The position numbers and the translations under genes were made by a program. From assembly GCA_049642725.1 (NCBI GenBank), contig JBARPC010000016.1, positions 14,838-78,837 of the forward strand: 64,000 nt of DNA, written 5' to 3'. The notes under the pieces are model-generated. The model had not been told where the DNA came from. It saw nothing but the letters and a program-made list of their open reading frames with translations, and did not search any database. This document shows, piece after piece, positions 26,912-54,804 of the stretch. How positions within the stretch are numbered: the stretch's first letter is position 1; each line of letters starts with the position of its first letter. This DNA comes from Minisyncoccales bacterium. Lineage in GTDB: Bacteria > Patescibacteriota > Minisyncoccia > Minisyncoccales > JAGMDC01.

Positions 26912-29900
26912 CTATTCCTTACTGATATCTAAAGCTGCAAAATTAGGCCGGTGGTTGACTTTGAAAGGAGATTCTGTGCCGCCGTTAGCCGCGCCTTGGG
27001 AAGAGGAAGAACACAAAGAGCTGGTATTGTGGTCGCAGACAAAAGCATGCCAGACATTGGATTCGCTATCACCCACTAAAGCTGTATAATTACAGCCGGC
27101 TTCAGACCCGGATGACGTAGAAGAAGATATACACCAATTACCATCGTCACAAGTTGGAGCAGCTTCGTTATTAGCGGTGATATTATTTCCCTTACAAATG
27201 GCTAAATAATAATTATCACTATCACCATCGGTGCCAGTCGCAGTAAAACTAACATTTGAATCCACATCAGTGGGCGAGGTTCCTGAAGACCCGCCATCCG
27301 AAGGACCCGCAGTAAAACTCGGCGCCGTTGCATAGGTGCAGTAGATGGAGTATTTATAATTATTAACATTTGTAGCATCTGTTGGATGACTAGGAGAATC
27401 ATAACTATTAGTACTATCTACATATGCTTGATTAGCATCTCCAGTATCATAATACATACCAGTTGCTACATCTTGAACTATCATCAAAACATAATCAGTT
27501 GAAGCGGTTAGAGTTGGTTCTGTGGAATAACTCGCTGTTTCAAGGGAATCAGTTGACATTGATATATCATATTCATTGACCTCATCGCCCCAAACCCCTA
27601 CAACATACATCTTAGTACCGTCTGAGCTGAAGAATATTCCACGAGGACCTGCTTCCTCCTCTGCCACAGAAAAGCACTGAAGATACACTGCGGTCGAGAC
27701 GTTCCAGGGGGTAGATAAATCATACTCGTTGACGTCAACTCCAAAATTCCCAATAACATACATCTTGGTCCCATCTGGCTTGAAGAATACTGCGTGTGGA
27801 GATTGTTCCTCCTCTGCCACAGAAAAGCACTGAAGATACACTGCGGTAGCAACATTCCAGGGGGTAGATAAATCATACTCGTTGACGTTATCTCCAGAAT
27901 CCCCAATAACGTACATCTTGGTCCCATCTGGCTTGAAGAATACTCCCCTTGGGACTCCTTCTTCATTAGATACAGAAAAGTTCTGAAGATACACTGCGGT
28001 AGCAACATTCCAGGGGGTAGATAAATCATACTCGTTGACGTCAACTCCTATGCGCCCGACAACGTACATCTTGGTCCCATCTGGCTTGAAGAATACTGCC
28101 TGTGGATATGTGTCCTGCCCTGCCACAGAAAAGTTCTGAAGATACACTGCGGTTGATATGTCCCAGGCAAAAGATGGGTCATAAACACTATCACTTATAC
28201 CATTTGTTACTATATTAAGATTACTTGCCAATGCTATAATCCCTTTTATATTTATACCTGAGGAAGGAACTGAATAATGAAATTTTATATTCTGAATAGT
28301 CCCCACATCAGATGGGCTGGTGAATTTAGAACCATACATATAATCAGCGCCTTGAGCATCGTCTAAGGTGCCTCCTTTTGTTTCATACCCAAAAGTCGGG
28401 TCAACACTCACGGGATAAATGGCGTTGTCCAGCCAATTCTGATCAATGGTAATAGTTAGCGTCTTTGTTTGCTCGTCTATATTCAATTCGCCCCAAACTT
28501 CTGTTCCAGCACTATCAATTATTTTCGGTCGGTAAATATGAAACGCTTTGCCTGCTCTGTAATTCTTTCCATTCGGAAATGCCTCGTAGTTTCCTGCCTT
28601 ACTTTCGTGATAAACAGCGTAAGAGTCAACTACATTTTCAGGTTGAAACACACCTTTTTCACTTCTCATATCTGGCTGATAATAAAACTTTAATCCTTTC
28701 GTTTCTATGTCTAAACTAATTATATTACTCGCTGGCTTCTCTTTTAAGATAACCTCAAATTCAAATCCCTCTGCGTGTTCTTCTGTTTTCTCTAACGGAT
28801 AGAAATGGGCTTCTTTTTTCTCTTCTATCCACTTCAGCTTGTTTCCTTGTAATTGGAGATTGCTATCTGTATCTGTGGAGACGGCTGTTGGCAAACTTAC
28901 AGAGACAAAACACTCCTCGTCCCATCTATGAAGTTTAACATAGGGAGCTAGGGGCGAATGTCTTTTGACACCTATTTCAATAACCTCGCCACTTGAAGAT
29001 TTAAGGGTATAAGTTCCATCTTCCATTTCTATAATTGCTTGAGGAGTTATTTCAGTATTATAATTTGGGTCAATGGTTTTTGTTTCACCAGCCCGAAGAA
29101 AAACATTTAAAGATAAAATCAAAAGAGCTTGCCCGTTCTTTCTTTCAATCCACAATTCCGGCTCAAATTCATTAGGAATATCTGAATAATCATAAAAAGA
29201 GAGATATTTCATATTTTGGCTATAGAAAGAAATCTTGCCGGGGCTTTCCAATTTTTGAGGATTTTCAGAAAGAGAAAAAATGCGATTATCCCAGTGTATT
29301 CTTTCTGCATTGATTTTATGTTTCAGGAGAAGGGATAAATTTAAATCCTGCTCGTTGTTATTAGTAAAAGTTAAAGTTTGCTTAATTCTTGATTCATTAT
29401 TCTCAATTCCTAATTCCTTGTAATGCGTAGTTAGGGAAATTTGGGAAAGGTCAACCTCGGTTTTTATGCTATGGCTTTTGTCAACCCCCACACCAAAATC
29501 TTTGGTGTGGGGGTCAATTTGTTTCGTGATTCTATATTCAGGAAGAGATTGAATTTCCATTCCTAAAAAGGATTTTATACTGTTTCCAGATTTTTCCCAA
29601 AAAGAAGGCGGCTGATAAAAATCCTGTTTATTGAAAATCGGCTCATTGGCTTCAATTGACAAACTTAAATCCTGAAATCCTGGTTTTAAATCAGGATATT
29701 CGTCTAAAAACTCATTTTCCAACAAATCAGAAATCAAATACTCATCAATAATTTTTGCGCTGCCAACTATTTCTTCCTTGTTATTTTCTTTTTTAGTTAA
29801 AGGAATATTCTGCGGATAAGAAGTTTCCTGAATTTCTAAATAAGAAGTTCTTAGTTTATAAAAAGGATTTTCTCCTTGTGCAGAAACAACCTGAAAAAAA

Positions 29901-32863: not shown

Positions 32864-33484
32864 TTAACTATCAACTATCTTTTTTACTTCTTCTTTGAGT
32901 TTATTTTTAATTCCTGACCAAGAAGCTTTTTTTATCATTTCGGGTATCGGCTCTACGTCGGCTGGCTCAAAATAAATTAAACTCTTTAAAATGTGAAATC
33001 GATTATATTGAATGCCTTGATATTTTTTATCGAATAAATTAAGAAGCTTTTCAAGGGAATATTTTTCAAGTAAAAAATATAAATCTATAAAATCTTTTTT
33101 AGCTCCCCTACTAGAAATAGCATCTATCTTCATACATATAATATCACGTTCATCGGCTAACTCAATTTTTTTAAATTCAATAAAAGGAAATAATAGTTTG
33201 TATGGATAAATAAAAAAACTAACCTTGACTCCATCCAACTGGCAATTTAGCGTGTTATCATCTTCTGATTCTATTTTAAAATTATTAAAAGCAAAAAGTT
33301 TTCTTTTCAAAGAAATTAAAGAAACTTTTTTTTGTGAAAACCAATCCAAATCAATTGACTTTCGATGTCCTAACTGTAAAGCCAAGGCAGTGCCACCTGC
33401 TAAATAAAAATTTTGGACTTCTTTGATATTGCTTAACGCTTCCAAAACGCGTTTGGTTTTAATGTTGATAACTTCTTGATGCAT
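32864..33484 (-). CDS. nucleotidyltransferase AbiEii/AbiGii-like toxin family protein
   Basis: FYLAGGTALALQLGHRKSIDLDWFS and the later D-rich motifs resemble the AbiEii nucleotidyltransferase fold signature. Confidence 0.65.
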   Translation of the reverse strand: MHQEVINIKTKRVLEALSNIKEVQNFYLAGGTALALQLGHRKSIDLDWFSQKKVSLISLKRKLFAFNNFKIESEDDNTLNCQLDGVKVSFFIYPYKLLFPFIEFKKIELADERDIICMKIDAISSRGAKKDFIDLYFLLEKYSLEKLLNLFDKKYQGIQYNRFHILKSLIYFEPADVEPIPEMIKKASWSGIKNKLKEEVKKIVDS

Positions 33485-34260: not shown

Positions 34261-35559
34261 ATGAATAAAAAAATAACTGGTCAAATCTTTATTTCAGATG
34301 AAGCACTTTCTGAGATAGAAAAGAAAGTAAAAAATCTTTCTGATTTCAAAAAAAACATTGAATCAGTTTTACAAGAAAATATTACTGAAGTTTTAGAAAA
34401 TATTTTAGCAGGCGCCATAAATCTAAATGCTTCAGATATTCATATTGAACCAAGAAAAAAAGAAACAAAAATCAGAATAAGAATTGACGGCATACTCCAA
34501 GAGGTTGTCTCTTTAGATAAAAAAATATTTGAATCCATTCTTTCTAGAATCAAACTTTTAAGCGCTCTGAAGCTTAATGTTTCTGACCGGCCGCAAGACG
34601 GCAGATTTTCTATTATTTCCAAACAGGAAATAATAGAAATTAGAGTCTCTTCCCTGCCCTCTGAATACGGAGAGTCAATTGTTTTAAGAATTTTAAATCC
34701 TAAATCATTAATTGAGATTGAAAGTTTAGGACTAAGGAAAGATCTGCTTGAACTTTTCTTAAAAGAAATAAAAAAGCCAAATGGAATGATTATTGTTACC
34801 GGACCTACCGGCTCTGGAAAAACAACTACTCTCTATGCTTTTCTTAAAAGGATTAAAAGCCCGGAAGTTAAAGTTATAACAATTGAAGACCCTATTGAAT
34901 ACCATCTCAAAGGTATTTCCCAGACACAAGTAAGACCGGAAAAAGGATACGACTTTGCTAACGGCCTCCGTTCTATTATGAGGCAGGACCCAGACGCAAT
35001 TCTGGTTGGAGAAATCAGGGATTTAGAAACAACTAAAATTGCCATCCAATCAGCGCTTACCGGCCATTTAGTTTTGACTACCTTACATACAAATGACGCT
35101 GCCGGCACTATTGCCCGTTTAATAAATTTAGGCGCGAAGCCGGCAAATATTGGACCAGCAGTAAATATGATTATTGCGCAAAGATTGGTGAGAAAAATCT
35201 GTCCAAAATGCGCTAAATTAGAAAAAGCCCCGCCCTCAATTTTAAATAAATTAAAAAGAGAATTGAAAGGAATTCCCAAAGAGATAAAAATTCCTAAAAT
35301 TGGTGATGGGTTGAAAATTCTAAAACCAAAGGGCTGTGAAGATTGTCATAACTCTGGATATAAAGGAAGGGCTGGTATTTTTGAAGCCATTTTGATTGAT
35401 GATGAAATGGAAAACTTTATTTTTAAAAACCCTTCAATCGCTGCTTTAAGAAAAAAAGCATTTAAAAAAGGAATGACAACTATGAAGCAAGATGGTTTTT
35501 TAAAAGTTTTAAATCAAGAAACAAACATAGAGGAAATAGAAAGGGTGGCTGGCGAGTAA
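34261..35559 (+). CDS. pilB: type IV pilus/type II secretion ATPase (PilB/GspE family, short N-terminus)
   Basis: Walker A GPTGSGKTTTLY, Asp and His boxes (RQDPDAILVGEIRD, GHLVLTTLHTN), tetracysteine CPKC...CEDC motif. Confidence 0.85.
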   Translation: MNKKITGQIFISDEALSEIEKKVKNLSDFKKNIESVLQENITEVLENILAGAINLNASDIHIEPRKKETKIRIRIDGILQEVVSLDKKIFESILSRIKLLSALKLNVSDRPQDGRFSIISKQEIIEIRVSSLPSEYGESIVLRILNPKSLIEIESLGLRKDLLELFLKEIKKPNGMIIVTGPTGSGKTTTLYAFLKRIKSPEVKVITIEDPIEYHLKGISQTQVRPEKGYDFANGLRSIMRQDPDAILVGEIRDLETTKIAIQSALTGHLVLTTLHTNDAAGTIARLINLGAKPANIGPAVNMIIAQRLVRKICPKCAKLEKAPPSILNKLKRELKGIPKEIKIPKIGDGLKILKPKGCEDCHNSGYKGRAGIFEAILIDDEMENFIFKNPSIAALRKKAFKKGMTTMKQDGFLKVLNQETNIEEIERVAGE

Positions 35560-36810: not shown

Positions 36811-36877
36811 TTTTAAACAATTTCTAAACATTTTCTGGACAGTTTTTAAACAGTTTTTTTGATAGTTGATAGATAAG

Positions 36878-38065
36878 ATGAAAAAAACTTGGAAAATTTG
36901 TTTTTGTTCTTTATTATATGTTGTTTGTTCTTTGTTCTTTATGCTTGGCTTAGCTAAGCATAATTTTGTCTCAGCCTATAAATCGCTTGATGTAGTAATC
37001 AATGAAGTTTGCTGGATGGGCACAAAGGCCTCACATAGTGACGAATGGATTGAGTTGTATAATAATAGCGATGCTGATATAAATCTTGATGGCTGGGTAT
37101 TAAAAGCTAATGACAAAAGCCCGGAAATTGAACTAATGGGTATTATTTTAGGTAAAAGTTTTTATATTTTAGAAAGAACTGATGATGATAGTGCGGCTGA
37201 AATTTCTGCTGATATAATTTATAAAGGAGCTTTAAATAATAAAGGAGAAATTTTAGAACTTTTTGATGGCGATAAAAATCTGATAGATAAAGTGGATTGC
37301 GGCAAAGGATGGTTTGCCGGTGACAATAAAACAAAACAAACAATGGAAAAGCTTGTTGAAGTCGGACTTCAACAAGCTCATTGGCAGACAAGCCAAAAAC
37401 CAGGCGGAACACCAAAAACTAAAAACAGTGATGGAAATGCTATGGAGGCCGAAACTCCTATGGAGGTTCGGCCTCAAAGCGAGCCGCCTCAAAACGAGCA
37501 TTATCCTTCTGGAATAATTATCAATGAAATACTGGCCTCGCCAGAGGGCCCTGACGCGGAAAATGAATGGATAGAAATTTTTAATGAAAATAATTTTGAT
37601 ACTGATATCTCTGGCTGGAAAATTTCTGACACTGTTGGTGGTATTAAGAGTTATACTTTTCCAATAGGAACAAAAATCCCAGGAAAAGAATTTTTGGTTT
37701 TAGAGCGTCCGGAAACAAAAATTACTTTAAATAACAATGGTGATGGATTAAAAATCTTTAATCCTAATGGAAAAATCGTTGATGAAATAAACTTTGAAAA
37801 AGCGACCTTAGGACAATCATATAATAAATTTGAATCTGAATGGCAATGGTCAGAAAATTTAACGCCTGGCGCTGTTAATAGTTCAGGAAAACATACGGAG
37901 AGCGAGTTTCTATTAGATGGTTCCAGCGAAGCAAGAATCAGCCAAGGATTTAAACAACTCTACGAGAACAGTTCTCGTAGAATGGCTGTTGTAATTGCTC
38001 TAATAATTGCTTTTTGTTCAGCTATTATTATTTTAATTTTAAAAAAGAATTTGAAAAGTAATTAA
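36878..38065 (+). CDS. membrane-anchored protein with two lamin-tail (LTD) domains
   Basis: VVINEVCWMGTKASHSDEWIELYNNSDADINLDGWVL and IIINEILASPEGPDAENEWIEIFNENNFDTDISGWKI are LTD signatures. N- and C-terminal hydrophobic segments. Confidence 0.75.
   Translation: MKKTWKICFCSLLYVVCSLFFMLGLAKHNFVSAYKSLDVVINEVCWMGTKASHSDEWIELYNNSDADINLDGWVLKANDKSPEIELMGIILGKSFYILERTDDDSAAEISADIIYKGALNNKGEILELFDGDKNLIDKVDCGKGWFAGDNKTKQTMEKLVEVGLQQAHWQTSQKPGGTPKTKNSDGNAMEAETPMEVRPQSEPPQNEHYPSGIIINEILASPEGPDAENEWIEIFNENNFDTDISGWKISDTVGGIKSYTFPIGTKIPGKEFLVLERPETKITLNNNGDGLKIFNPNGKIVDEINFEKATLGQSYNKFESEWQWSENLTPGAVNSSGKHTESEFLLDGSSEARISQGFKQLYENSSRRMAVVIALIIAFCSAIIILILKKNLKSN
37350..37378. repeat. perfect palindrome AGCTTGTTGAAGTC-G-GACTTCAACAAGCT (family copy 2, longest) inside CDS
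   Basis: Read directly. Encodes KLVEVGLQQA. Confidence 0.9.
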
Positions 38066-40989: not shown

Positions 40990-42972
40990 ATGGCTAAAAG
41001 AGTATATCATCGGAGAATATTTGGAGAAAATAAAAAAATAAGGCGAATTAAAAAATTGGCAAAATTTTTAGTTTTTTGTTTTAGTTTTTTGTTTTTTGTT
41101 TTTTGTTTTTTGTTTTTTTATTATGCCAAAGACCTGCCCAGGCCGGAAAACTTTATGGAAAAGCAATTTATTGAATCAACGAAAATATATGACCGGACTG
41201 GCGAAGTTCTTTTATATAATATCTATGGAGAAGAAAAAAGAACCATTATAGCTTTGGACGCAGTGCCAGAACAATTAATCCAAGCTATCATCACAGCTGA
41301 AGACAGAAATTTTTACAAACATCATGGCATTGATTACAGAGGCGTTATGCGGGCGATATTAGTAAATCTTAAATTAAAAAAACCGGCTCAGGGCGGCTCT
41401 ACTATTACACAGCAATTAATCAGGTCCAGTTTTTTAACTCTCAGTAAAACAGCTGAAAGAAAAATAAGGGAAATTATTTTAACCATAGAATTAGAAAGAA
41501 AATATACTAAGGACCAAATAATGGAATGGTATTTAAATCAGGTTCCTTTTGGCTCTAATGCTTACGGCGTAGAAGCGGCCAGCCAGACCTATTTTAAAAA
41601 ATCGGTTCAGGACTTATCTTTGGAAGAATCAGCTATTCTTGCCTCGCTCGTCTGCGGGCCGAGCCGTCTCTCTCCTTATGGTCAAAATGAAGACAGGTTA
41701 TTAGGGAGAAAAGATTATGTTTTAAAAGGAATGGCAGAGGAGGGATATATATCAAAAGAAGAAGCAGAAGAGGCAAAGAAAAGAGAAATATCCTTTGCTC
41801 CTAAACTTGTGGAAATCAAAGCTCCTCATTTTACCCTTTATGTTAAAAGCCAATTAGAAAGAGAATACGAAAGAGAAGATGATAGTAATTTTTTAAAAGA
41901 AAACGGATTAAAGGTTTATACTTCTTTGGATTGGGAGCTTCAGCATTTAGCAGAAACAGCAGTAGAAGATAGAGCAAAAATTAATGAAGGCTATCAGGCC
42001 CATAATGCTTCCTTGGTTGCCTTAAATCCGAAAAACGGCGAGGTTTTAGCAATGGTTGGCTCAAAAAATTATTTTGGCGAATCTTTTCCTGAAGGATGTA
42101 ATCCGGAAAAGGACTGTCTGTTTACACCCAAAGTGAATATTGCTATTTACGGCATTGGCAGACAACCCGGTTCTGCTTTTAAACCATTTGTTTATGTTAC
42201 TGCTTTTCAAAACGGCTATGACGGTGAAACCACAGTAATAGATGAAGAAACAAACTTTGGTCTTTGGGGAGATAAAGAATATATTCCCCAAAACTATGAT
42301 AATAAATTTAGAGGAGAAGTAACCTTAAGAGAGGCATTGGCGCAATCAATTAATGTGCCATCAGTAAAAGTTTTAGTTAATTTTTGCGGCTCTACGGTGC
42401 AGGAAAGTATTGAAAATAGCGTTAAAACCGCTCAAAAGCTGGGGATTACTACTTTAAGACCTTCTTACGGACCAGCCATTGTTTTGGGCGGCTGGGAGGT
42501 AAGATTGTTAGAAATGACTTCTGCTTATGGCGTTTTTGCTACCGAAGGATTAAAGGTACCGCCAGTAACTATTTTAAGAATTGAAGACGCGCAGGGTAAT
42601 ATAATAAAAGAAAATAAAAAAACTCCTCAAAGAGTTTTAGGTATTCAAGAGACACGACTCCTCAATAATATTCTTTCAGACAATGAAGCCAGGGCCCCTC
42701 TTTTTGGATATAATTCGTCTCTATATATTAAAGATTTTAATACAGCTGCTAAAACAGGAACAACCGAGGAGTATAAAGACGCCTGGACTATCGGCTACAG
42801 CCCTTCCATTGTATGCGGCGTTTGGGCCGGAAACAATGATAATTCTCCAACAAATAAAAAACCAGGTGTTACCCTGTCTGCGCCTATTTGGAAGGCATTT
42901 ATGTCAGAAGCTCTTAAAAAATTCCCTAAAGAAAATTTTACTCCTCCGGAATTTTTAGAAAAACAATTTTAA
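40990..42972 (+). CDS. class A penicillin-binding protein (glycosyltransferase 51 plus transpeptidase)
   Basis: EDRNFYKHHGID, GGSTITQQL (GT51). SAFKPF (SxxK), SINVPS (SxN), KTGTT. Confidence 0.9.
   Translation: MAKRVYHRRIFGENKKIRRIKKLAKFLVFCFSFLFFVFCFLFFYYAKDLPRPENFMEKQFIESTKIYDRTGEVLLYNIYGEEKRTIIALDAVPEQLIQAIITAEDRNFYKHHGIDYRGVMRAILVNLKLKKPAQGGSTITQQLIRSSFLTLSKTAERKIREIILTIELERKYTKDQIMEWYLNQVPFGSNAYGVEAASQTYFKKSVQDLSLEESAILASLVCGPSRLSPYGQNEDRLLGRKDYVLKGMAEEGYISKEEAEEAKKREISFAPKLVEIKAPHFTLYVKSQLEREYEREDDSNFLKENGLKVYTSLDWELQHLAETAVEDRAKINEGYQAHNASLVALNPKNGEVLAMVGSKNYFGESFPEGCNPEKDCLFTPKVNIAIYGIGRQPGSAFKPFVYVTAFQNGYDGETTVIDEETNFGLWGDKEYIPQNYDNKFRGEVTLREALAQSINVPSVKVLVNFCGSTVQESIENSVKTAQKLGITTLRPSYGPAIVLGGWEVRLLEMTSAYGVFATEGLKVPPVTILRIEDAQGNIIKENKKTPQRVLGIQETRLLNNILSDNEARAPLFGYNSSLYIKDFNTAAKTGTTEEYKDAWTIGYSPSIVCGVWAGNNDNSPTNKKPGVTLSAPIWKAFMSEALKKFPKENFTPPEFLEKQF
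41071..41119 (+). repeat. heptanucleotide tandem repeat (GTTTTTT)x5, preceded by two degenerate units, inside the PBP signal-anchor codons
   Basis: G at 41084, 41091, 41098, 41105 and 41112, each followed by six T. Confidence 0.85.
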
Positions 42973-44138
42973 GTGGATTTGATTGGCATTACAACATAAA
43001 GGTAACTTTCATCACCTACTGGTTTTAAAACAGAAGGACCATCTTCTTTATTTATTTCAAAAATTACTTCTGAACTTTTTATATTAACTAATCCTTCAAT
43101 TAAGAATTTCCAATTAAAAGAAACTTTTATTTCATTACCTGTGATTTTACATGGAATAACTGATTTATTTTCACCAAGATCTGCGCTTTGAGAAGAAATT
43201 TCTAATTGTTTCTTTTCTGGTACTGTTTTTAATTTAACCTCATTAACTTTACCGCTAAACAGAGAAGCGGTTTTTATTTTATTTAAAAATTCATTTTTAT
43301 CTAAAATAGCCCGTGTCTCATATTTTTTAGGGATAATCTCCTGATAATTAGGGTAGTCGCCTTCAATTAAGCGAGAAATAAGTTGAATTTGTGGTTTAGT
43401 AATTTCTGGAAATAATATCTCAAATAACACCTGATTGGAAGAAAAATAAATCCTGATTTTTTTAGAATCCATTTTTCTAACAACATCACTATCTTTTTCA
43501 GAAAAAATATTAAGGAGTTCCCTGCTTGTTTTTAATGGAAGTATAAAAGAATATCCTTGTTCTGGAATTAAATCGCTGTCTAATTTATTTTTAAAATAAA
43601 GCGTTTTTTCAGCTAATCTAAAACTATCAGTACTTGTTATTTTTAGTTGGTTTTTTTGAAAATTAAAATATATCCCAGATAATTCTACTCTTGTTTGACT
43701 AGGGCTGGTAAAGTTAATTACTTGAGAAATTCCTTCATAAAAAGGAGTGATATTAATTTCTAAAAATTTTTTATTCTCAATTTTTGGGATAATTGGAAAT
43801 TCTTCTATATCCTGACCTTTAATCTGCGCTTTTTGATTTTTACATTCAATATGTAAAACATTATTTTTTACATCTAATATTATTTTTTCATTTGGAAGAA
43901 AATTAACAAAGATAGATAAAAATTTAGCTGGAATAGTTATTTTTCCTTGTTTTTCTATTTTAGCTAAAACCCAGTATTTTATACCCATTTCAAGATCAGT
44001 TGTGGCAAGATTTAAAAGATTAGCTTCAGTAGAAATTAAAACATTATTTAAAATTGGAAGAGTGAAATTTTTACCAGTTATTTTTTCTACAATATCTAAT
44101 CCCTTTTTTAAATTTTCTTTTAAAGTTATTATTTTCAT
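42969..44138 (-). CDS. dnaN: DNA polymerase III beta sliding clamp
   Basis: 389 aa immediately downstream of dnaA. Three-domain clamp pattern with MKIITLKENLKKGL start and C-terminal YLYVVMPI. Confidence 0.9.
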   Translation of the reverse strand: MKIITLKENLKKGLDIVEKITGKNFTLPILNNVLISTEANLLNLATTDLEMGIKYWVLAKIEKQGKITIPAKFLSIFVNFLPNEKIILDVKNNVLHIECKNQKAQIKGQDIEEFPIIPKIENKKFLEINITPFYEGISQVINFTSPSQTRVELSGIYFNFQKNQLKITSTDSFRLAEKTLYFKNKLDSDLIPEQGYSFILPLKTSRELLNIFSEKDSDVVRKMDSKKIRIYFSSNQVLFEILFPEITKPQIQLISRLIEGDYPNYQEIIPKKYETRAILDKNEFLNKIKTASLFSGKVNEVKLKTVPEKKQLEISSQSADLGENKSVIPCKITGNEIKVSFNWKFLIEGLVNIKSSEVIFEINKEDGPSVLKPVGDESYLYVVMPIKST

Positions 44139-44306
44139 ATTATTAATATTAATTAAATAAATTTTATTATTGTTATTATATATGTGTATATCTTTATTTT
44201 TAATTTAATTCTTCTATAAATAACTTGTGTAAAATTTGTTTATTAAAAATGGTTTAAAATTTCTTTTTTTATAATTCAGATTTTCTTCACTTTTTCTTCA
44301 CTTTTT

Positions 44307-45665
44307 TTAGACAGAATATATCCTTTGTTTAATTAAATTAATCTCCTCAAAAAGTTTTTCGTTTTCTTTTACTTCTCTGGAAATTTTTTCAAAAGCGTAA
44401 ATAGCAGTGGTATGATCTTTACCTCCAAATTTATTACCTATGAAAGGAAATGAGCAATTTAGGGATTCTCTTAAAATATACATTGCTATTTGACGCGGCA
44501 TAACAATTTCTTTTTTTCTTGAAGCAGCAATAATTTCTTTCTCTTTTAAATCGTAAAATTCAGCTACTGTTTGGATGATTTTTTTAGGGCTTACTATTTT
44601 CGCTGGAGTAGAGATAATATGTTTTAAAAGTGTTTTAGCCGCTTCAAAATTAGGGGTTTCGTTATTTAATTTTTGATAAGCGATTAACCTATTTAAGCCG
44701 CCTTCTAATTCTCTAATATTTTCTTTGATGTTTGAACTAACATATTCTAAAACATCATCAGAAAGATTTATCCCTTTTTCTTGTGATTTAACTTTTAGAA
44801 TAGCCATTCTGGTTTCAAAGTCAGGAAAACCAATATCAGCGATCATTCCTCCTTCAAAACGGGAACGTAGACGTTCTTCTAAGTTAGAGATAGCTTTTGG
44901 CGGACAGTCTGAAGAAATAATTATCTGTTTGTTGTTTTCGTATAAAGTATTAAAAATATGAAAAAATTCTTCTTGAGTTTTTTCTTTTCCAGCTAAAAAT
45001 TGTATATCGTCAATAATTAAAACATCAATTTTTTTGTGGTTGTTTTTAAACTCCTCAATACTGTGATTCTTGATTGAAGAAACAATGCCGGAAGTGAATT
45101 TTTCGGTAGTAATATATTTTATTTTTTTGTCTTGAAAATTTTTTTTAGTTTTGTTACCAATGGCTTGAATAAGATGAGTCTTGCCTAATCCTACCCCACC
45201 GTAGATAAAAAAAGGATTATAGGTTAGTCCAGGATTTTTAGAAATAGCCCAGGAAGCAGCATGGGAAAGTTCATTAAAAGGCCCTACTACAAAATTTTCA
45301 AATAAATAACGTGGATTTAAATTAGTAGCCTTATCAATTTTGAATTCTTGGAATTGAAGCTGTTCTTCGTCTATATAGGAATCTACAATATTAGATAACT
45401 CTTTTTTTATTTTTAATCCAGTTCTAGGAACTTCGTATGTTACTTCTTTTACTTCTTCATTTAAACTGTGGGCGATTTTTAAAATAGTTTTACTATACTT
45501 ATTATCCAACCATTCTTTAGAAAAATGATTAGGGACAGAAACTACGAGTTTCCCTTCTTTTTTTAAAAGAATTTTCGTGTTTTTAAACCAGGTAGCAAAA
45601 TTAGCTGGAGAAGTATTAAACTGAATTTGGGCAAGTATTGCCTGCCAGAGTTCTTCTTTAGTCAT
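44307..45665 (-). CDS. dnaA: chromosomal replication initiator DnaA
   Basis: Walker A GGVGLGKTHLIQAIG, box VII, C-terminal DNA-binding helix FGGKDHTTAIYA. Confidence 0.95.
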   Translation of the reverse strand: MTKEELWQAILAQIQFNTSPANFATWFKNTKILLKKEGKLVVSVPNHFSKEWLDNKYSKTILKIAHSLNEEVKEVTYEVPRTGLKIKKELSNIVDSYIDEEQLQFQEFKIDKATNLNPRYLFENFVVGPFNELSHAASWAISKNPGLTYNPFFIYGGVGLGKTHLIQAIGNKTKKNFQDKKIKYITTEKFTSGIVSSIKNHSIEEFKNNHKKIDVLIIDDIQFLAGKEKTQEEFFHIFNTLYENNKQIIISSDCPPKAISNLEERLRSRFEGGMIADIGFPDFETRMAILKVKSQEKGINLSDDVLEYVSSNIKENIRELEGGLNRLIAYQKLNNETPNFEAAKTLLKHIISTPAKIVSPKKIIQTVAEFYDLKEKEIIAASRKKEIVMPRQIAMYILRESLNCSFPFIGNKFGGKDHTTAIYAFEKISREVKENEKLFEEINLIKQRIYSV

Positions 45666-45842
45666 ATTATTGCGTTTTTATCATATCACATTGTCAAATA
45701 AAGACAAATTAAGTTTAAATAAATTAAAAAGCAAAGGCATAGCTAAAATTTGTTGATAAACTGGGGAAAAAGTGTGGGAAAGAACATACTAATATACCGT
45801 GTTGTTTTTTTAATTAGAATATGATAATGTTAAAATATTATT

Positions 45843-45980
45843 ATGAGTATTACTTATAAGCCTAAAAAAAGAAAAAGAAAAAAAACACATGGGTTTTTAG
45901 ATAGAAAAAGAACCAAGGGTGGAAAAAGGATTTTAGCGCAAAGGAGAAGAAAGGGGAGAAGGAAATTAAGCGTCGTATAG
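45843..45980 (+). CDS. rpmH: 50S ribosomal protein L34
   Basis: Hand translation gives [45 protein letters not shown]. Lies upstream of rnpA as in most bacteria. Below the ORF-track size cut-off. Confidence 0.9.
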
Positions 45981-45984
45981 AATT

Positions 45985-46015
45985 CCGAGTTAACTTAACC
46001 GAGTTAAGCAATAAT
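45985..46015 (-). repeat. dispersed intergenic repeat (CTTAACTCGGTTAAG family), copy 2, reverse orientation
   Basis: The reverse complement ATTATTGCTTAACTCGGTTAAGTTAACTCGG is identical to 19546..19576. Confidence 0.8.
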
Positions 46016-46043
46016 TAATTTCGGATTTCGGATTTTTGAGTTT

Positions 46044-46382
46044 ATGTTTAGTCAAAAAAATCGTTTAAGAAAGAAAAATGACTTTGATAGAGTTTTTAAA
46101 CAAGGAAGAGGATATAGGCACGGCTTTTTATTTTTAAAAGTTTTAGATAATGATTTGGGATTTACTAGATTTGGTGTTGTTGTTAGTAAAAAAATTTCAA
46201 ATAAGGCAGTGGTTCGCAATAAAATAAAAAGGCAGTTAAGAGAGATATTAAAGAAAAAAACAGACACGGTAAAAAAAGGTTTAGATATTGTTTTTTTAAC
46301 TAATAGCGGTATAGAAAAAGAAAACTTTAAGGATATAGAGCAAGAAGTTGAAGAAATTTTAAAAAAAGCAGGAATAATATGA
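46044..46382 (+). CDS. rnpA: RNase P protein component
   Basis: RLRKKNDFDRVFKQGR...VVVSKKISNKAVVRNKIKRQLRE is the RnpA motif. Confidence 0.85.
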   Translation: MFSQKNRLRKKNDFDRVFKQGRGYRHGFLFLKVLDNDLGFTRFGVVVSKKISNKAVVRNKIKRQLREILKKKTDTVKKGLDIVFLTNSGIEKENFKDIEQEVEEILKKAGII

Positions 46383-47910: not shown

Positions 47911-49701
47911 TTACTCTATTACTTGGATGCAAGAGGCCTTTTGAGATATTGAGTTTATAGGATTACAGGCAGGACAGGGGTTGGCAAAAGTAGTAGCAAG
48001 AGGAGTGCCTGGACAGCAGTTTCCGGTAGCATAATAATCGCAACTTAATTCAGAAAAAGTATATTTATATTTTGTACAATTACTCCTTTGTGTCAAGCAG
48101 TCATTAAAACCATCAGGAGGAATATCACAATCAAATCCTGCACCCCCTGCAAAATCACAAGCGCCACTAGTAGCAGGAAGATCCAACAAGGCATTAGAAG
48201 GTCCTGGAGTGTCCCAGGAATCTGGATGCGGTGAAAGCCATTCTCGTCCGCAACAACTATCATCTGTTTCGCAGTCAATACCATAAGCATTATCAGGATT
48301 GTCATACTTGCCAGCAGACACATTTAAAGAACCACAGTCGCATTTTCCAGCGGCATCCGGTTCCCTGCATTGAGCGCCGGTTCCGCCATTTTCCCAAATT
48401 TTTATTTTACAGCCGCCTTTATATTGATAAACTTCTGTTACAGAGTTGCTTGGCACAATACTATCTTTTCCTAATTGATATATTTCACCTCTGGGAATAA
48501 AATCAGTTTTTCCAGCTCCTTTGATAAGAACGCCGCCGCACACGCCAAATTTAATTACGCATATCTTGCTTACAGCGTTATCACCGACATCGTTATTAGC
48601 AACTAAAGCGCCGTCTGCTGGATTATTTGAAATAAAAGTATCGCCATAACCGGTGTTTTCCGGAAAATTGTCATATACAATACCTGAACCTTTCCATCCA
48701 CAATCTCCATTAGGTTCTCTACATAAAACTGTCCAATAACCAGGTCCTACTTCTAAGGAAGAAGCTCGGTTTTCGCCGATGCGAGATAATTCAGAACCGC
48801 TTTTACAATCATAACCGTTTATGCCGGCCGGGAACTCCTGATAAATCCCGCCAAAGTTTTTTTCTTCATACAAACGTGCTCCTTGAGGAATATCAGATAT
48901 CTCAATTGAAGAAAGAGCTCCTAATCCGTCTTCACCTAAAAATACACCAGTAATATCATTTCTTAAAACACTTATATCTATACATTGTTTTGGGGTTGTT
49001 AAAATCTTGCATTCTTTAAGGTCGCTGTCAGCGCATACTCTGACTCTTTTGTCATCACCATAAAAAATAAGCGATATTGCTATGTCATTCCAGTCATCAG
49101 ATTCGTTATATTGATGCCTTTTTAGGTTTTCACTCAAGGAAAGATTTAACATTTGTCCGCCAATACATTCTTTATTGTCATCTTTGTCAATATCAAGCCA
49201 TTCTTTTCCTGCGTTTTTGCAATCCTCTTCTGTAATAATACCGACATCAATATTACAATTCAATTCGTCAAATAGAGTAACAGTGCCAGATGTGCCTTGA
49301 TAAAAACTTATATCTTCTAAATCAATAGGATAGAAAATAGTTAATTGGGGATTGATTGTGTTTAGAATCAGCCAGGAGCAGAGCAGAAGGACTAAGCCGA
49401 TTAAAGCCCCAAATATTCTATCTTTAGCGTCAGATAAAGCAGCCGGATTGCCGGCAGAAATTAAATAAAGAAAGCCGCCGATAACCAGAGCGGCAAAAGC
49501 AATTAAACCGACAATAATTAAAGAAAAATTAAATAAATATTTTATATACTCTGGCAAAAGGGTTTCCTGGACAGTAGTAGGTTTTTCACCGGCAATTTCA
49601 GGATAATCAACTTCCAGGGGTCTTTCAACAGCAAAAACATTCTGGCAGCAGATAAAAAGAAAGATAATTAATATTATAGATAAAAAAAATTTATATTTCA
49701 T
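47911..49701 (-). CDS. T4SS-pilin-like N-terminal domain fused to a ~470-aa Cys-rich extracellular region
   Basis: Signal peptide plus two TM helices with LYLISAGNPAALSDAKDRIFGALIGLVLLL, as in TrbC/VirB2-type pilins of CPR clusters (from memory). I count about 28 Cys downstream. LYEEKNFGG...SSLEVGPGYW resembles a beta-gamma-crystallin Greek-key motif. Confidence 0.6.
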   Translation of the reverse strand: MKYKFFLSIILIIFLFICCQNVFAVERPLEVDYPEIAGEKPTTVQETLLPEYIKYLFNFSLIIVGLIAFAALVIGGFLYLISAGNPAALSDAKDRIFGALIGLVLLLCSWLILNTINPQLTIFYPIDLEDISFYQGTSGTVTLFDELNCNIDVGIITEEDCKNAGKEWLDIDKDDNKECIGGQMLNLSLSENLKRHQYNESDDWNDIAISLIFYGDDKRVRVCADSDLKECKILTTPKQCIDISVLRNDITGVFLGEDGLGALSSIEISDIPQGARLYEEKNFGGIYQEFPAGINGYDCKSGSELSRIGENRASSLEVGPGYWTVLCREPNGDCGWKGSGIVYDNFPENTGYGDTFISNNPADGALVANNDVGDNAVSKICVIKFGVCGGVLIKGAGKTDFIPRGEIYQLGKDSIVPSNSVTEVYQYKGGCKIKIWENGGTGAQCREPDAAGKCDCGSLNVSAGKYDNPDNAYGIDCETDDSCCGREWLSPHPDSWDTPGPSNALLDLPATSGACDFAGGAGFDCDIPPDGFNDCLTQRSNCTKYKYTFSELSCDYYATGNCCPGTPLATTFANPCPACNPINSISQKASCIQVIE

Positions 49702-49713
49702 TATTTTATTTTA

Positions 49714-50127
49714 TCAACTTTTTAGTTCAGAGTAAACAAAGATAGTCCAAAAGGGCAGGGCGCCAATAACAGGAATTAATTCTCCAAGAGCAGCTAAGCC
49801 AAATCTTAGTCCTCTTTTTGCTCCTTTTTTTACTGTTTTTTTTGCTTTCTTTTTCATTCTTTTCTTTTTCATTTCTTCTATCTTTTTTTGTCTTTCAGCT
49901 ACTTTTTCGCCCATTTCTTCTTTTACTTCTTCTTTTGATTTTTCGCCTTGAGAACGCATAAGTGTCCAGGCGCCGAAAAAGAGAATGCCGATTCCATCAG
50001 GGATATAAGAAAGAACTTCGCCTATTCCAAAAACAAGATCTAATAATAAACAGATTACTCCAATTAAATCAAGTAAACCTGCCAAGAATAACATTAAGAT
50101 TGCTTCTGGACTAAATAAAGAAGACAT
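49714..50127 (-). CDS. small membrane protein with Lys-rich cytoplasmic loop
   Basis: Hydrophobic N- and C-terminal segments flank a KKKRMKKKAKK stretch. Tightly packed between the pilin fusion and the VirB4-like gene. Confidence 0.5.
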   Translation of the reverse strand: MSSLFSPEAILMLFLAGLLDLIGVICLLLDLVFGIGEVLSYIPDGIGILFFGAWTLMRSQGEKSKEEVKEEMGEKVAERQKKIEEMKKKRMKKKAKKTVKKGAKRGLRFGLAALGELIPVIGALPFWTIFVYSELKS

Positions 50128-50128
50128 A

Positions 50129-51916: not shown

Positions 51917-51917
51917 C

Positions 51918-52556
51918 TTATTTTTGCAGTTCTGGCGGTATTTCCGGATAATAACCGACCTCTGCCTGGTTTGGATGATGCAGTCCCCAAAAAAGCTCAA
52001 TGATTTCCGGGGTTGTAAGAGGAACAGCTTTTAAACCGCATCTTCTTAAGCCAAGAATTATAAATTCCATTCTTTGCTGGAGCTGGATTTTAGACCTTTG
52101 AAATTCTTCTTCAGTTAATTTGGGAATTTTCGGCGCTTTAAAAATTCCTTTCTTTTCATTTTGCTTTGTTTCCAACAAGCTAAAAGGCACAATTATAAAA
52201 AAGTTTTTATTCATTATTGTCCCTGCCTTTACCAAACTTTCTATAAATTCTCTGTAACCAGATGTTTGAATTTGTAACAGTTCGTCTGTTTGCTCTTTTT
52301 CCAGCTTTTTTAATTTATCAATATAGCCAGTGATATTGATGCGCCGTGATTGGACAAGAATTTGGCAGGAAAAATCCAGAGAATTTAAAAAGTTTTGGAA
52401 CTGGTAAATAATGGCTGATTGCTCATCGTCAGATTTTAAAGCAAAATTCAAAGAAGAAACCATAAGAATGCCTCTTAATAATTTATTTTTTAATATAACA
52501 GTTCCTTCCCTAATTTGCTCTATTTGCAGGAAATCCTGCGTAGATGATTTAGCCAT
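51918..52556 (-). CDS. 212-aa protein resembling a detached VirB4 N-terminal region
   Basis: DFLQIEQIREGTVILKN...LNFALKSDDEQSAIIYQFQNFLNSLDF resembles the N-terminal part of conjugative VirB4/TraC ATPases. Assigned from memory. Confidence 0.45.
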   Translation of the reverse strand: MAKSSTQDFLQIEQIREGTVILKNKLLRGILMVSSLNFALKSDDEQSAIIYQFQNFLNSLDFSCQILVQSRRINITGYIDKLKKLEKEQTDELLQIQTSGYREFIESLVKAGTIMNKNFFIIVPFSLLETKQNEKKGIFKAPKIPKLTEEEFQRSKIQLQQRMEFIILGLRRCGLKAVPLTTPEIIELFWGLHHPNQAEVGYYPEIPPELQK

Positions 52557-52561
52557 ACTTT

Positions 52562-52978
52562 TTACTTTGTTTTAGTTTCTAATTGGCTGGACAATTGCCC
52601 GAGCTTGCTTCCTGTAATAGTTAAATTAGAAGCTTTTTCTTTTTTACCCTCTGCGGTTTTAGTAGAAAAAGGTTCCTTTTCAAGAAATTTAGGCGGTAAT
52701 CCTTTTTTCTTCCAAATATATAATTTAGGAGACGAGGAAAACATAAAGAAATCTTTTATTATAGTAGGCAGGGAACGGCCTTCAATTTTTACAAAAGCTA
52801 ACACCAAAGCGCCTCCCATAAGAATAACAGCAGCAATTAAGCATTGGGCAAGAGGAATAGTGAAATATAAAACAAAAGAAATTCCGCCGGCAATGCCGAC
52901 ATAAATAAACTGCTTAAAAGTTAATGGTCCGACAATTTTTGCTTCATGCTCAATAAATTTTGGAACAGTAAATCGCAT
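52562..52978 (-). CDS. PrgI/VirB3-like small membrane protein
   Basis: MRFTVPKFIEHEAKIVGPLTFKQFIYVGIAGG followed by two TM helices matches the PrgI family pattern. Confidence 0.6.
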   Translation of the reverse strand: MRFTVPKFIEHEAKIVGPLTFKQFIYVGIAGGISFVLYFTIPLAQCLIAAVILMGGALVLAFVKIEGRSLPTIIKDFFMFSSSPKLYIWKKKGLPPKFLEKEPFSTKTAEGKKEKASNLTITGSKLGQLSSQLETKTK

Positions 52979-53086
52979 TTAATAAGTTAAAAGTTTAAAG
53001 TGAAAACTTTGACTTTTGACTTTTCGCTTGCTCTATTTTACCACAGTTTTATTTTATCACAAAAAGGAAAATAAGAGAAATAGGGA

Positions 53087-53115
53087 TTGACAACACTTTT
53101 TTAAAATGCTATTCT
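53087..53115 (+). promoter_or_regulatory. promoter TTGACA-17 nt-TGcTATTCT
   Basis: TTGACA 53087..53092, TATTCT 53110..53115 with an upstream TG. AAGGAGGT SD lies before ATG 53183. Confidence 0.5.
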
Positions 53116-53182
53116 AATATAGAGGTCATTTAAAAAATAAATAATGGCCGATAGAGAAAAGAAAAGGAGGTAAAAAGAAGAA

Positions 53183-53467: not shown

Positions 53468-53469
53468 AA

Positions 53470-54797: not shown

Positions 54798-54804
54798 ATT
54801 AAAA

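What the first reader, a model, noticed from the sequence alone, without database searches (positions are those of the whole stretch)
37350..37378. Longest copy of the VEVGLQQ palindrome (14+1+14) inside the LTD protein
This copy extends the palindrome to AGCTTGTTGAAGTC-G-GACTTCAACAAGCT. The extra paired bases (AGCT/AGCT) lie outside the shared core. That suggests selection for hairpin or cruciform length rather than for the peptide. The symmetry also produces mirror-image shadow ORFs on both strands (LKSDFNKL in track ORFs 37253..37501 and 37314..37517).
Basis: seen in the sequence. Interest (0 to 1): 0.65.

Follow-up and report, generated by a model that had tools for sequence, protein, structure and literature searches.

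The report
REP-like hairpin repeat inside genes
The 29-base palindrome in the LTD gene is one copy of a short hairpin repeat that, in related Patescibacteria, flanks and sits inside an IS200-like tyrosine transposase gene; unusually, its copies lie in frame inside ordinary genes and replace existing codons instead of adding length.

Summary
Window 37350..37378 is a perfect 14+1+14 palindrome in an LTD-domain gene. Two more copies of the 21-nt core TGTTGAAGTC-S-GACTTCAACA lie in unrelated genes: a surface protein and RsmA/KsgA.

It is a DNA-level element, not a peptide motif. Related low-GC Patescibacteria contigs carry the same core in intergenic DNA, in both orientations and in two reading frames (VEV[G/R]LQQ, LLKSDFN). 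Arms run past the core far more often than chance: arm of at least 12 in 23 of 49 copies, against 3.5 expected.

In all 7 loci examined, a ~240-aa Pfam Y1_Tnp protein is flanked by this palindrome or a lineage-specific compensated variant, and 6 of the 7 also carry a copy inside the gene. Its best structural match is the E. coli REP-associated transposase bound to a REP hairpin. This is the REPtron layout.

Three things differ from classical REPs: no GTAG tag, in-frame intragenic copies, and no added length. At the same KsgA codon, relatives carry different perfect palindromes, with 7 of 12 stem pairs changed on both sides.

No transposase lies in the window; relatives carry other Y1_Tnp types at two syntenic spots that are empty here.

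Verdict: a new variant of a known kind.

The parts
37350..37378 (.). The reported palindrome, AGCTTGTTGAAGTC-G-GACTTCAACAAGCT (14+1+14). The core is 37354..37374. On the sense (+) strand it reads K-LVEVGLQQA.
36866..38065 (+). Host gene: a two-LTD-domain surface protein. The palindrome occupies a hypervariable loop between the conserved TKQTMER and NWQTSQNPGGTPK motifs.
20187..20211 (.). Second copy, GCTGTTGAAGTC-C-GACTTCAACAGC (12+1+12). On the sense (-) strand it reads AVEVGLQQP.
19780..21129 (-). Host gene of copy 2: a 449-aa secreted or anchored protein with Ig-like repeats. The ortholog in L071 has a different palindrome (TAGACATC-G-GATGTCTA) at the same codons, with the same protein length.
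57682..57702 (.). Third copy, TGTTGAAGTC-C-GACTTCAACA (10+1+10). On the sense (-) strand it reads VEVGLQQ.
57276..58118 (-). Host gene of copy 3: 16S rRNA dimethyltransferase RsmA/KsgA. Relatives carry VEVKPQQ, LPEARPRA or GDVKHRQ at the same place, each encoded by its own perfect palindrome with the same protein length.
40990..41010 (.). TyrS/PBP junction. The relative L097 carries a Y1_Tnp gene of another type (with GC-rich palindromes) between these two genes. Nothing is there in the window.
52979..53666 (.). Gap between the PrgI-like and Band_7 genes. The relative L088 carries a divergent Y1_Tnp gene at this position. No Y1_Tnp homolog is detectable here in the window.

Best explanation
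The palindrome is a REP-like hairpin repeat. It is the cognate DNA element of a Patescibacteria-specific family of IS200-like Y1 (HUH) tyrosine transposases of the RAYT/TnpA-REP type.

Shown:
- In related genomes the transposase gene is bracketed by the palindrome, usually carries a copy inside its own coding sequence, and changes together with it. This is the 'REPtron' layout.
- Further copies are scattered through the chromosome in intergenic DNA and, in frame, inside ordinary genes.
- Four of the six reading frames of the core contain no stop codon.
- Coding copies sit in loops or variable segments.

Inferred:
- The active form is the single-stranded DNA hairpin, which the transposase binds, cuts and rejoins, as E. 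coli TnpA-REP does in vitro.
- Coding copies are not made by simple insertion. A pre-existing hairpin or look-alike site is rewritten to the lineage's current master sequence without changing length. The route would be transposase-mediated strand exchange between hairpins, or short-patch conversion.
- Arm-to-arm templated correction keeps each site a perfect palindrome and lets it grow outwards. This would explain why the LTD copy has four extra pairs.
For: (1) Association with the transposase.
- L060 has 5 copies within 900 bp, around and inside ORF 1828..2571.
- That ORF matches Pfam Y1_Tnp at 35.4 bits against a cut-off of 23. Its only NCBIfam hit is REP_Tyr_transpos.
- The family has 874 homologs, named in Parcubacteria, Paceibacterota and Nealsonbacteria, mostly seen on one contig each.
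- PNHFH (HUH) and Y152-I-Q-x-x-N157 are invariant or nearly so.
- The AlphaFold model has pLDDT 87. Its best PDB match is 4er8, E. coli RAYT bound to a REP hairpin (E=2.5e-5), ahead of the IS608, ISDra2 and IS200 TnpA structures.
- All 7 loci of this family that I examined have flanking copies, and 6 of the 7 also have a copy inside the gene: L060, L055, L096, L094, L086/87, L095. L084 has imperfect flanking copies only.

(2) Co-variation of transposase and palindrome.
- L086 uses TGTTGAAACC-A-GGTTTCAACA, and the loop of its protein reads LKPGIN instead of LLKSDFN.
- L095 uses TCTGTCGAAGT-CAA-ACTTCGACAGA in all 5 of its copies. L094 uses a T/A centre.

(3) The constraint is on the nucleic acid.
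- Arm statistics.
- Third-codon-position identity inside the motif is 7/7, 7/7, 6/7 and 6/7, against 0.47-0.68 outside it.
- Copies occur in intergenic DNA and in alternative frames.

(4) Replacement rather than insertion.
- In KsgA, 13 residues lie between RKFLE and QKEV in every palindrome-bearing type, only 1 residue more than B. subtilis KsgA.
- RsmH has the same length as Thermus RsmH.
- The 449-aa protein has the same length as its homologs.

(5) Hairpin sites persist with compensated changes.
- At the KsgA site, 7 of 12 pairs changed on both sides and none changed on one side only.
- 79% of cells are paired, against 27-38% when the partner is slid. 0 of 500 shuffles reach the observed values.

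(6) Literature.
- REPtron definition, perfect-palindrome group 3 REPs, and co-evolution of TnpA-REP with its REPs: PMC8266576.
- Single-copy, vertically inherited RAYTs: PMC5581495.
- Intragenic REPs: PMC3733652.
Against: - No Y1_Tnp homolog is present in the 64-kb window (profile search of all six frames).
- At two syntenic positions where relatives carry a Y1_Tnp gene of another type, the window has none. The link to the transposase therefore rests on related genomes.
- There is no GTAG or CGTC tag next to the stem.
- The protein scores 23 bits against the 80-bit cut-off of NCBI's RAYT equivalog model.
- Copy number appears low: 3 in 64 kb here, and 1-4 exact-core contigs per MAG. Classical REPs number in the hundreds.
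- No known Y1 transposase reaction replaces sequence without changing length. That step is inference.
- The loci were retrieved with an exact 19-mer or a perfect-palindrome finder, so imperfect copies are under-sampled.
- Symmetric changes in both half-sites would also be expected for the binding site of a dimeric protein.
Confidence: 0.65

Rival explanations
1. The hairpins are functional cis-elements of the host genes, acting in mRNA or DNA: processing or stability sites, pause sites, or sites for a host factor. Selection keeps them at fixed positions. The transposase merely shares or exploits the same hairpins and does not create the coding copies.
For: - Orthologous KsgA, LTD and 449-aa sites keep a perfect palindrome with the same symmetry centre and the same protein length while the sequence changes through compensated substitutions.
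- The window has 18 perfect palindromes with arm >=9 against 4.2 expected, and 14 of them lie inside ORFs.
- Many intergenic copies sit 4-40 nt after stop codons.
Against: - Three unrelated genes in one genome share an identical 21-nt core while their orthologs carry other sequences. That needs homogenisation towards a master copy, not only site-wise selection.
- No single-sided (G.U-type) changes are seen at the KsgA site, and sense-strand C.A mismatches flank several copies. Neither is typical of RNA-level selection.
- No Rfam family matches.
- No T-tract follows the window copies.
- Copies are strongly concentrated at Y1_Tnp genes.
Confidence: 0.15
2. The transposase plus its two flanking palindromes is an ordinary autonomous IS200-type insertion sequence. 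The scattered palindromes are solo ends or miniature derivatives of it, not a domesticated REP/RAYT system.
For: - The layout is hairpin - tnpA - hairpin in a unit of about 0.8-0.95 kb.
- Presence or absence differs between close relatives at syntenic sites.
- IS200 itself has perfect palindromic ends (PMC8266576).
Against: - The genes sit inside long contigs (57-145 kb), and most clusters are seen on one contig. This is not what a multi-copy IS gives in metagenome assemblies.
- The same palindrome is on both sides rather than distinct left and right ends.
- The best structural match is RAYT rather than IS200/IS608 TnpA.
Confidence: 0.1
3. The palindrome is a double-stranded binding site for a dimeric protein, such as an operator or a parS-like centromere site, which can lie inside genes.
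For: - It has perfect dyad symmetry and a low copy number.
- The three copies lie within 26 kb of dnaA/dnaN.
- The outer TGTT...AACA resembles parS (from memory).
- Symmetric half-site changes would mimic covariation.
Against: - Arm length varies from 9 to 20, with arbitrary complementary outer sequence.
- Arms are nested or tandemly doubled in L026/L058/L070.
- The centre is 1 nt in some lineages and 3 nt in others.
- Copies are tightly clustered at, and inside, Y1 transposase genes. Enzymes of that family recognise single-stranded hairpins.
Confidence: 0.06
4. VEVGLQQ is a functional peptide motif and the palindrome is incidental. Alternatively, the sequence is an adapter or assembly artefact.
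For: - All three window copies have the same frame and the same sense-strand centre G.
- The core contains AAGTCGGA, the start of a sequencing adapter, and a TCCGAC MmeI-type site (both from memory).
Against: - Codons are identical in unrelated proteins, and copies occur in intergenic DNA and in other frames.
- The element is found in many independent assemblies from different projects and assemblers.
- It is conserved at orthologous codons in diverged genes.
Confidence: 0.02

Closest known systems
REPtrons: REP sequences with their REP-associated tyrosine transposase (RAYT / TnpA-REP), especially group 3 with short, perfectly palindromic REPs (PMC8266576, PMC5581495)
   Same: - A Y1 HUH transposase gene is bracketed by the very palindrome that is scattered through the genome.
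- Palindrome and protein change together between lineages.
- The gene appears to be single-copy and sits in the chromosome.
- The best structural match of the protein is E. coli RAYT bound to a REP hairpin.
   Different: - No GTAG or CGTC tag.
- The stems are AT-rich, with a 1- or 3-nt centre.
- There are few copies rather than hundreds.
- Copies lie in frame inside genes, including inside the transposase gene itself.
- Coding copies replace sequence rather than add it.
- The protein is ~240 aa and far below NCBI's RAYT equivalog cut-off.
- The host phylum is Patescibacteria.
IS200/IS605-family insertion sequences (IS200, IS608, ISDra2)
   Same: - A Y1 transposase gene lies between subterminal hairpins.
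- The chemistry acts on single-stranded hairpins.
- IS200 has perfect palindromic ends.
   Different: - The same palindrome is on both sides.
- There is no sign of multiple identical copies of the whole unit.
- Solo hairpins are dispersed on their own.
Intragenic REPs and Rickettsia palindromic elements (RPE) inserted in frame in protein genes (PMC3733652)
   Same: Palindromic repeats are tolerated in frame inside functional genes, including genes for nucleic-acid enzymes.
   Different: Those are insertions that add 20-50 or more residues. Here KsgA, RsmH and the 449-aa protein keep the length of homologs that lack the repeat, and the element is only 21-29 nt.
Quasipalindrome correction by intrastrand template switching (Ripley model; from my own knowledge, not tested here)
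   Same: It would produce perfect arms, simultaneous changes on both sides, and outward growth of a palindrome without selection.
   Different: It cannot by itself explain why three unrelated genes share the same 21-nt core, or why the core tracks a transposase.

Membership tests
REP/RAYT system (REPtron) | Associated gene encodes a Y1 HUH tyrosine transposase (Pfam Y1_Tnp, HUH motif and catalytic Tyr) | tested here: met
   In related loci, not in the window. Pfam Y1_Tnp scores 35.4 bits against a cut-off of 23. PNHFH and Y152-I-Q-x-x-N157 are invariant or nearly so. The fold's best PDB hit is 4er8, RAYT bound to REP.
REP/RAYT system (REPtron) | The transposase gene is flanked by the repeats that are dispersed in the genome | tested here: met
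   All 7 loci of this protein family have copies on both sides, 4-45 nt from the start or stop codon. Six of the seven also have a copy inside the gene; L084 has imperfect flanking copies only.
REP/RAYT system (REPtron) | A cognate transposase is present in the same genome as the repeats | tested here: inconclusive
   None is found in the 64-kb window, and two syntenic sites that hold other Y1_Tnp types in relatives are empty here. The rest of the genome could not be read.
REP/RAYT system (REPtron) | Conserved tetranucleotide (GTAG or CGTC) at the foot of the hairpin | tested here: not met
   GTAG, CTAC, CGTC or GACG occurs within 12 nt of the core in 0-3 of 49 copies per side. The flanks carry almost no information.
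REP/RAYT system (REPtron) | Extragenic location | tested here: not met
   All 3 window copies lie deep inside ORFs. Related loci have both intragenic and intergenic copies.
REP/RAYT system (REPtron) | High copy number (tens to hundreds per genome) | not testable with these tools
   There are 3 copies in 64 kb here, and 1-4 contigs with the exact core per MAG in the genome scan. Whole genomes were not available.
REP/RAYT system (REPtron) | The transposase passes NCBIfam's REP_Tyr_transpos equivalog cut-off | tested here: not met
   23.0 and 21.8 bits against a cut-off of 80. It is nevertheless the only NCBIfam hit.
REP/RAYT system (REPtron) | Single-copy, vertically inherited transposase gene | tested here: inconclusive
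   Most protein clusters are seen on 1 contig, and the genes sit inside long contigs. For the other Y1_Tnp types, presence differs between close relatives at syntenic sites.
RPE / intragenic REP insertions | The element is an insertion that lengthens the host protein relative to homologs | tested here: not met
   KsgA has the same 13 residues in all palindrome types and is 1 residue longer than B. subtilis KsgA. RsmH equals Thermus RsmH in length. The 449-aa protein equals its homologs. The LTD site is a hypervariable loop and cannot be decided.
Intrinsic terminator | GC-rich stem followed by a T/U tract | tested here: not met
   The terminator scan does not flag it, and the stem is followed by CATTGGCAG.
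Known RNA family (Rfam) | Match at gathering score | tested here: not met
   0 matches in the whole window.
DNA uptake sequence (DUS/USS) | The short motif is over-represented on its own, not only as inverted pairs | tested here: not met
   TGTTGAAGTC and its reverse complement occur only within the three palindromes.

The most novel reading that the evidence does not exclude
Dissemination by rewriting. In these streamlined genomes a Y1 transposase, or hairpin-templated repair coupled to it, would convert pre-existing hairpin or look-alike sites inside coding sequences to the current master palindrome, with no change of length. Arm-to-arm correction would then keep each site perfectly paired for long periods. 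REP-type repeats would thus spread and persist inside essential genes (KsgA, RsmH) as a population of in-frame hairpins that co-evolve with the proteins hosting them. This mode differs from insertion-type REPs, RPEs and MITEs.
Probability: 0.3. Interest if true: 0.75.

Novelty: new variant of a known kind. Interest (0 to 1): 0.55.

Why it matters
- How REPs spread is still unresolved (PMC8266576). A REPtron-like system whose copies sit at alignable codons of universal genes gives a natural record of each event: what was there before, what changed, and whether length changed. Intergenic REPs cannot give this.
- It extends REP/RAYT-type systems to Patescibacteria (CPR), whose genomes have almost no intergenic space.
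- It shows that short identical peptides shared by unrelated CPR proteins can be footprints of DNA repeats rather than protein motifs. That matters for annotation and for motif or domain discovery.
- The excess of perfect intragenic palindromes in this window (18 against 4.2 expected) suggests the phenomenon is broader than this one family.

Tried and rejected
- DNA-uptake-sequence idea: rejected. The half-site is never found alone.
- Target-site duplication as the source of AGCT...AGCT: rejected. Other copies' extensions are inverted repeats, not direct ones.
- Adapter or MmeI-site artefact (AAGTCGGA/TCCGAC, from memory): rejected. The element occurs in many independent projects, in frame, at orthologous codons.
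- Insertion (RPE-like) model: rejected for KsgA, RsmH and the 449-aa protein by alignments.
- Terminator model: no T-tract.
- Rfam: no hit.
- Sequence search of the transposase against the PDB: nothing significant. Only the fold search found RAYT.
- Viral contigs: only high-GC hits with arm 9, taken as chance or unrelated. The same holds for the high-GC genome and metagenome hits.
- Orientation of the centre base relative to the transposase gene or to the likely replication direction: no consistent pattern. In the window, n=3.
- First literature search was badly targeted.
- The 2026 preprint found could not be opened.
- The cluster look-up meant to link the window's MAG to a transposase gave no accession numbers.
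- L084 first looked like a transposase without palindromes. An approximate search then found imperfect flanking copies with G.T pairs.
Full report
**1. The observation**

Window 37350..37378 reads AGCTTGTTGAAGTC-G-GACTTCAACAAGCT, a perfect 14+1+14 palindrome. It lies in ORF 36866..38065(+), which reads KLVEVGLQQA there. The ORF is an LTD-domain protein (Pfam LTD, E=6.6e-31).

A search allowing mismatches finds exactly three copies in the window, against 0.00 expected:
- 20187..20211, 12+1+12, in a 449-aa surface-protein ORF on the minus strand (AVEVGLQQP);
- the reported copy;
- 57682..57702, 10+1+10, in RsmA/KsgA on the minus strand (NVEVGLQQM).

All three share TGTTGAAGTC-S-GACTTCAACA. On the sense strand the centre is G and falls on codon position 1. 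The half-site never occurs alone. The two 'shadow ORFs' both read SLLKSDFNKL, which is a trivial result of the symmetry.

Predicted hairpins are stable. As DNA the three copies fold at -13.3, -11.3 and -7.6 kcal/mol, and as RNA at -17.7, -15.5 and -9.3.

**2. Copies elsewhere**

I scanned the public collections with the 19-mer GTTGAAGTCSGACTTCAAC. This returned 26 genome loci, 51 metagenome loci and 6 viral loci. They split cleanly in two.
- High-GC hits have arms of 9 or occasionally 10, with one outlier of 15. I take them as chance matches or unrelated coding sequence.
- Low-GC hits come from MAGs labelled Paceibacterota, Parcubacteria, Gribaldobacteria or Patescibacteria, plus a few unclassified or otherwise labelled MAGs. 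Their arms are 10-20.

The window's own RsmA is named as coming from a Minisyncoccales MAG.

In a non-redundant set of 49 copies with the 10+1+10 core, the arm-length distribution is: 10 (20 copies), 11 (6), 12 (11), 13 (3), 14 (2), 15 (5), 17 (1), 20 (1). Arm >=12 occurs in 23 of 49 copies against 3.45 expected (P=3e-14). Of 42 distinct flank types, 17 reach arm >=12.

Outer pairs differ between copies but remain complementary: CAATC/GATTG, CAAAC/GTTTG, AGC/GCT, GAGCT/AGCTC, GT/AC, GTC/GAC. One site has both arms doubled (A-A-c-A'-A'; L026, L058, L070). Many arm-10 copies are flanked by a partial extra arm.

Copies occur in intergenic DNA, for example the four JBAZZD copies and the two that flank a pilin-like gene in L042. 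Inside genes they occur in two frames and both orientations: VEVGLQQ, VEVRLQQ and LLKSDFN. The third frame contains TGA.

Across orthologs 64-75% identical in protein, third-codon positions inside the motif are identical at 7/7, 7/7, 6/7 and 6/7 sites. Outside the motif the figure is 0.47-0.68.

So the constrained object is the DNA or RNA palindrome, not the peptide.

**3. What it belongs to**

L060 carries five copies within 900 bp: two upstream of, two inside and one downstream of a 247-aa ORF.
- The ORF matches Pfam Y1_Tnp, the IS200-like transposase family, above the gathering score.
- Its only NCBIfam hit is the REP-associated tyrosine transposase model, although far below its cut-off.

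The family has 874 members at E<=1e-5. Where a source names them, they come from Parcubacteria, Paceibacterota or Nealsonbacteria, and most are seen on a single contig.

The HUH motif (PNHFH) and a Y-I-Q-x-x-N tyrosine motif are invariant or nearly so. An AlphaFold model has pLDDT 87 and pTM 0.86. Its best PDB match is 4er8, E. coli RAYT bound to a REP hairpin (E=2.5e-5). IS608, ISDra2 and IS200 TnpA follow.

All seven loci of this family that I could read have cognate palindromes 4-45 nt outside the start and stop codons. Six of the seven also have one inside the gene, at a low-confidence loop near residues 52-64: L060, L055, L096, L094, L086/L087 and L095. L084 has imperfect, G.T-containing flanking copies only.

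The palindrome changes with the protein:
- L086 has TGTTGAAACC-A-GGTTTCAACA on both sides, and its own loop reads LKPGIN instead of LLKSDFN.
- L095 has TCTGTCGAAGT-CAA-ACTTCGACAGA in all five copies.
- L094 uses a T/A centre.

Other Y1_Tnp types in relatives carry their own GC-rich palindromes (L088, L097).

This is the REPtron layout described in the literature. A tnpA-REP gene is bracketed by the REPs that are dispersed in the genome. [quoted passage not shown] RAYTs are single-copy and behave like housekeeping genes (PMC5581495).

**4. What differs from classical REPs**

(a) No GTAG or CGTC tag adjoins the stem, and the flanks carry almost no information.

(b) All three window copies, and many others, are in frame inside genes. 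Intragenic REPs are already known, but as insertions that add residues (PMC3733652).

(c) Here the copies do not add length.
- In KsgA, every palindrome-bearing type has 13 residues between RKFLE and QKEV, and the palindrome-free ADNPPKEM type has 12. The window protein is one residue longer than B. subtilis KsgA.
- RsmH in L011-13 (IVEVRLQQPIETT) has the same length as Thermus RsmH (IVAAREKAPIETT).
- The 449-aa protein aligns without a gap to its homologs.
- The LTD site is a hypervariable loop of 4, 10 or 11 residues and cannot be decided.

(d) Orthologous sites keep a perfect palindrome with the same symmetry centre, but the sequence differs. At the KsgA site:
- window: TGTTGAAGTC-G-GACTTCAACA;
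- L089 and L091: (T)GTTGAGGT-CAA-ACCTCAAC(A), 9+3+9 and 8+3+8;
- L090: TGCCCGAGGCC-C-GGCCTCGGGCA;
- L093: CTGGCGATGT-CAA-ACATCGCCAG;
- L088: 7+9+7;
- L092: none.

On six orthologs, 7 of 12 stem pairs changed on both sides and none on one side only. 79% of cells are paired, against 27-38% when the partner is slid, and 0 of 500 shuffles reach the observed values.

The 449-aa protein's site reads GCTGTAGACATC-G-GATGTCTAGAGC in the L071 ortholog. That is three compensated differences from the window copy. LTD relatives read VEVKLQQ or VEVKPRQ at the same place. The L097 version is imperfect, with G.T pairs.

**5. How it most likely works**

Shown:
- The palindrome family is tied to a Y1 transposase family and co-varies with it.
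- It is dispersed.
- Coding copies are length-neutral.
- Sites persist with compensated change.

Inferred:
- The functional form is the single-stranded DNA hairpin, bound, cut and rejoined by the transposase. This is by analogy with E. coli TnpA-REP and IS608.
- Three unrelated genes of one genome share an identical 21-nt core while their orthologs carry other palindromes. Existing hairpin or look-alike sites must therefore be rewritten towards a master copy. The route would be strand exchange between hairpins or short-patch conversion, not insertion.
- Templated correction between the two arms would keep each site perfect and let it extend outwards.

On this reading, the four extra AGCT pairs of the LTD copy are partly a subfamily trait. 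The same AGCT-T extension is found in the copy inside the L055 transposase gene, and half of it in L029 and L035. They may also partly reflect such outward growth. They are not evidence of selection for length at this site, since the L032 ortholog has only 10 pairs.

Sense-strand G (Gly) is commoner than C (Arg) among VEV-frame copies. This suggests that the peptide acts only as a filter on which copies survive.

**6. Weak points**
- The window itself has no Y1_Tnp.
- At two syntenic positions where relatives carry Y1_Tnp genes of other types, the window has none: TyrS/PBP in L097 and Band_7/PrgI in L088. I could not read the rest of the genome.
- Copy number seems low.
- The loci were retrieved with exact or perfect-palindrome searches, so imperfect copies are under-sampled.
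- The rewriting step has no biochemical precedent.

**7. Rivals**
- Host cis-element under site-wise selection (0.15). It fits the conserved sites and the general excess of intragenic palindromes: 18 against 4.2 expected, 14 of them inside ORFs. It does not fit the shared core across genes or the clustering at transposase genes.
- Ordinary IS200-type IS with solo ends (0.10).
- Duplex binding site, parS-like (0.06). The three copies lie within 26 kb of dnaA, but variable and nested arms argue against it.
- Peptide motif or artefact (0.02).

**8. Verdict**

The palindrome is real and highly non-random. It is best explained as a REP-like repeat of a RAYT-like system in Patescibacteria. It is a new variant of a known kind, because it lacks a tag, sits in frame inside genes and replaces sequence instead of inserting. 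Interest 0.55.

Noticed in passing
window 14531..14565, 29484..29514, 34607..34639, 37959..37981, 19145..19166, 5657..5677: The window has a general excess of perfect palindromes: 18 with arm >=9 against 4.2 expected, and 6 with arm >=12 against 0.03. Fourteen of the 18 lie inside ORFs. Examples are 16+3+16 (CCCCCCACCACTTTTA-GAA-...) in a 5'-3' exonuclease gene, 14+3+14 (ACCCCCACACCAAA-ATC-...) in a 1012-aa ORF, and 14+5+14 in a T2SSE ATPase gene. The two G/C-ended ones share a CCCCCAC(A)CCA motif and may form a second family.
   Followed up: partly
window 36939..36963; L097 13123..13147: An imperfect hairpin, TTATGCTTGGCT-T-AGCTAAGCATAA, lies in the N-terminal codons of the same LTD ORF. It resembles a perfect 12+1+12 intergenic palindrome, TTGTGCTTAGCT-A-AGCTAAGCACAA, in a relative. 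This looks like yet another palindrome family.
   Followed up: no
L097 14351..15052 and 15132..15178; L088 15095..15817 and 15010..15042; L093 15187..15209: Relatives carry other Y1_Tnp types with their own GC-rich perfect palindromes: 23+1+23 around GGGAGGGAC-A-GTCCCTCCC, and 16+1+16 around GGGGGAGGCC-C-GGCCTCCCCC. L090's KsgA site (TGCCCGAGGCC-C-GGCCTCGGGCA) shares the inner GAGGCC-C-GGCCTC with the second type.
   Followed up: partly
window 42969..46382: dnaN (42969..44138, -), dnaA (44307..45665, -) and a 112-aa ORF at 46044..46382 (rnpA by synteny with L097; not tested here) place the likely replication origin near 45.7-46.0 kb. The three palindrome copies lie 8-26 kb from it.
   Followed up: no
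window 47911..57271: A type IV secretion-like cluster (TraG P-loop ATPase and PrgI by Pfam; TraC-like and TrbL-like by synteny only; plus a Band_7 gene by Pfam) lies next to rsmA. It is syntenic with L088 and L093, and a similar cluster lies downstream of rsmA in L086.
   Followed up: partly
L084 8210..10759: One member of the Y1_Tnp family sits 4 nt downstream of a reverse-transcriptase gene. bAvd-like and 23S_rRNA_IVP genes and an FGE-sulfatase-domain protein are nearby, a context like that of a diversity-generating retroelement.
   Followed up: no
L093 10001..10915 (KsgA ortholog): This KsgA has a local duplication at the palindrome site (…GDVKHRQMRPCQM…; CGCCAGATG…TGCCAGATG). P0005 has a smaller one. 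The hairpin site appears to be an indel hot spot.
   Followed up: no
window 32864..33484: An AbiEii-type toxin (type IV toxin-antitoxin nucleotidyltransferase) gene lies near tsaE.
   Followed up: no
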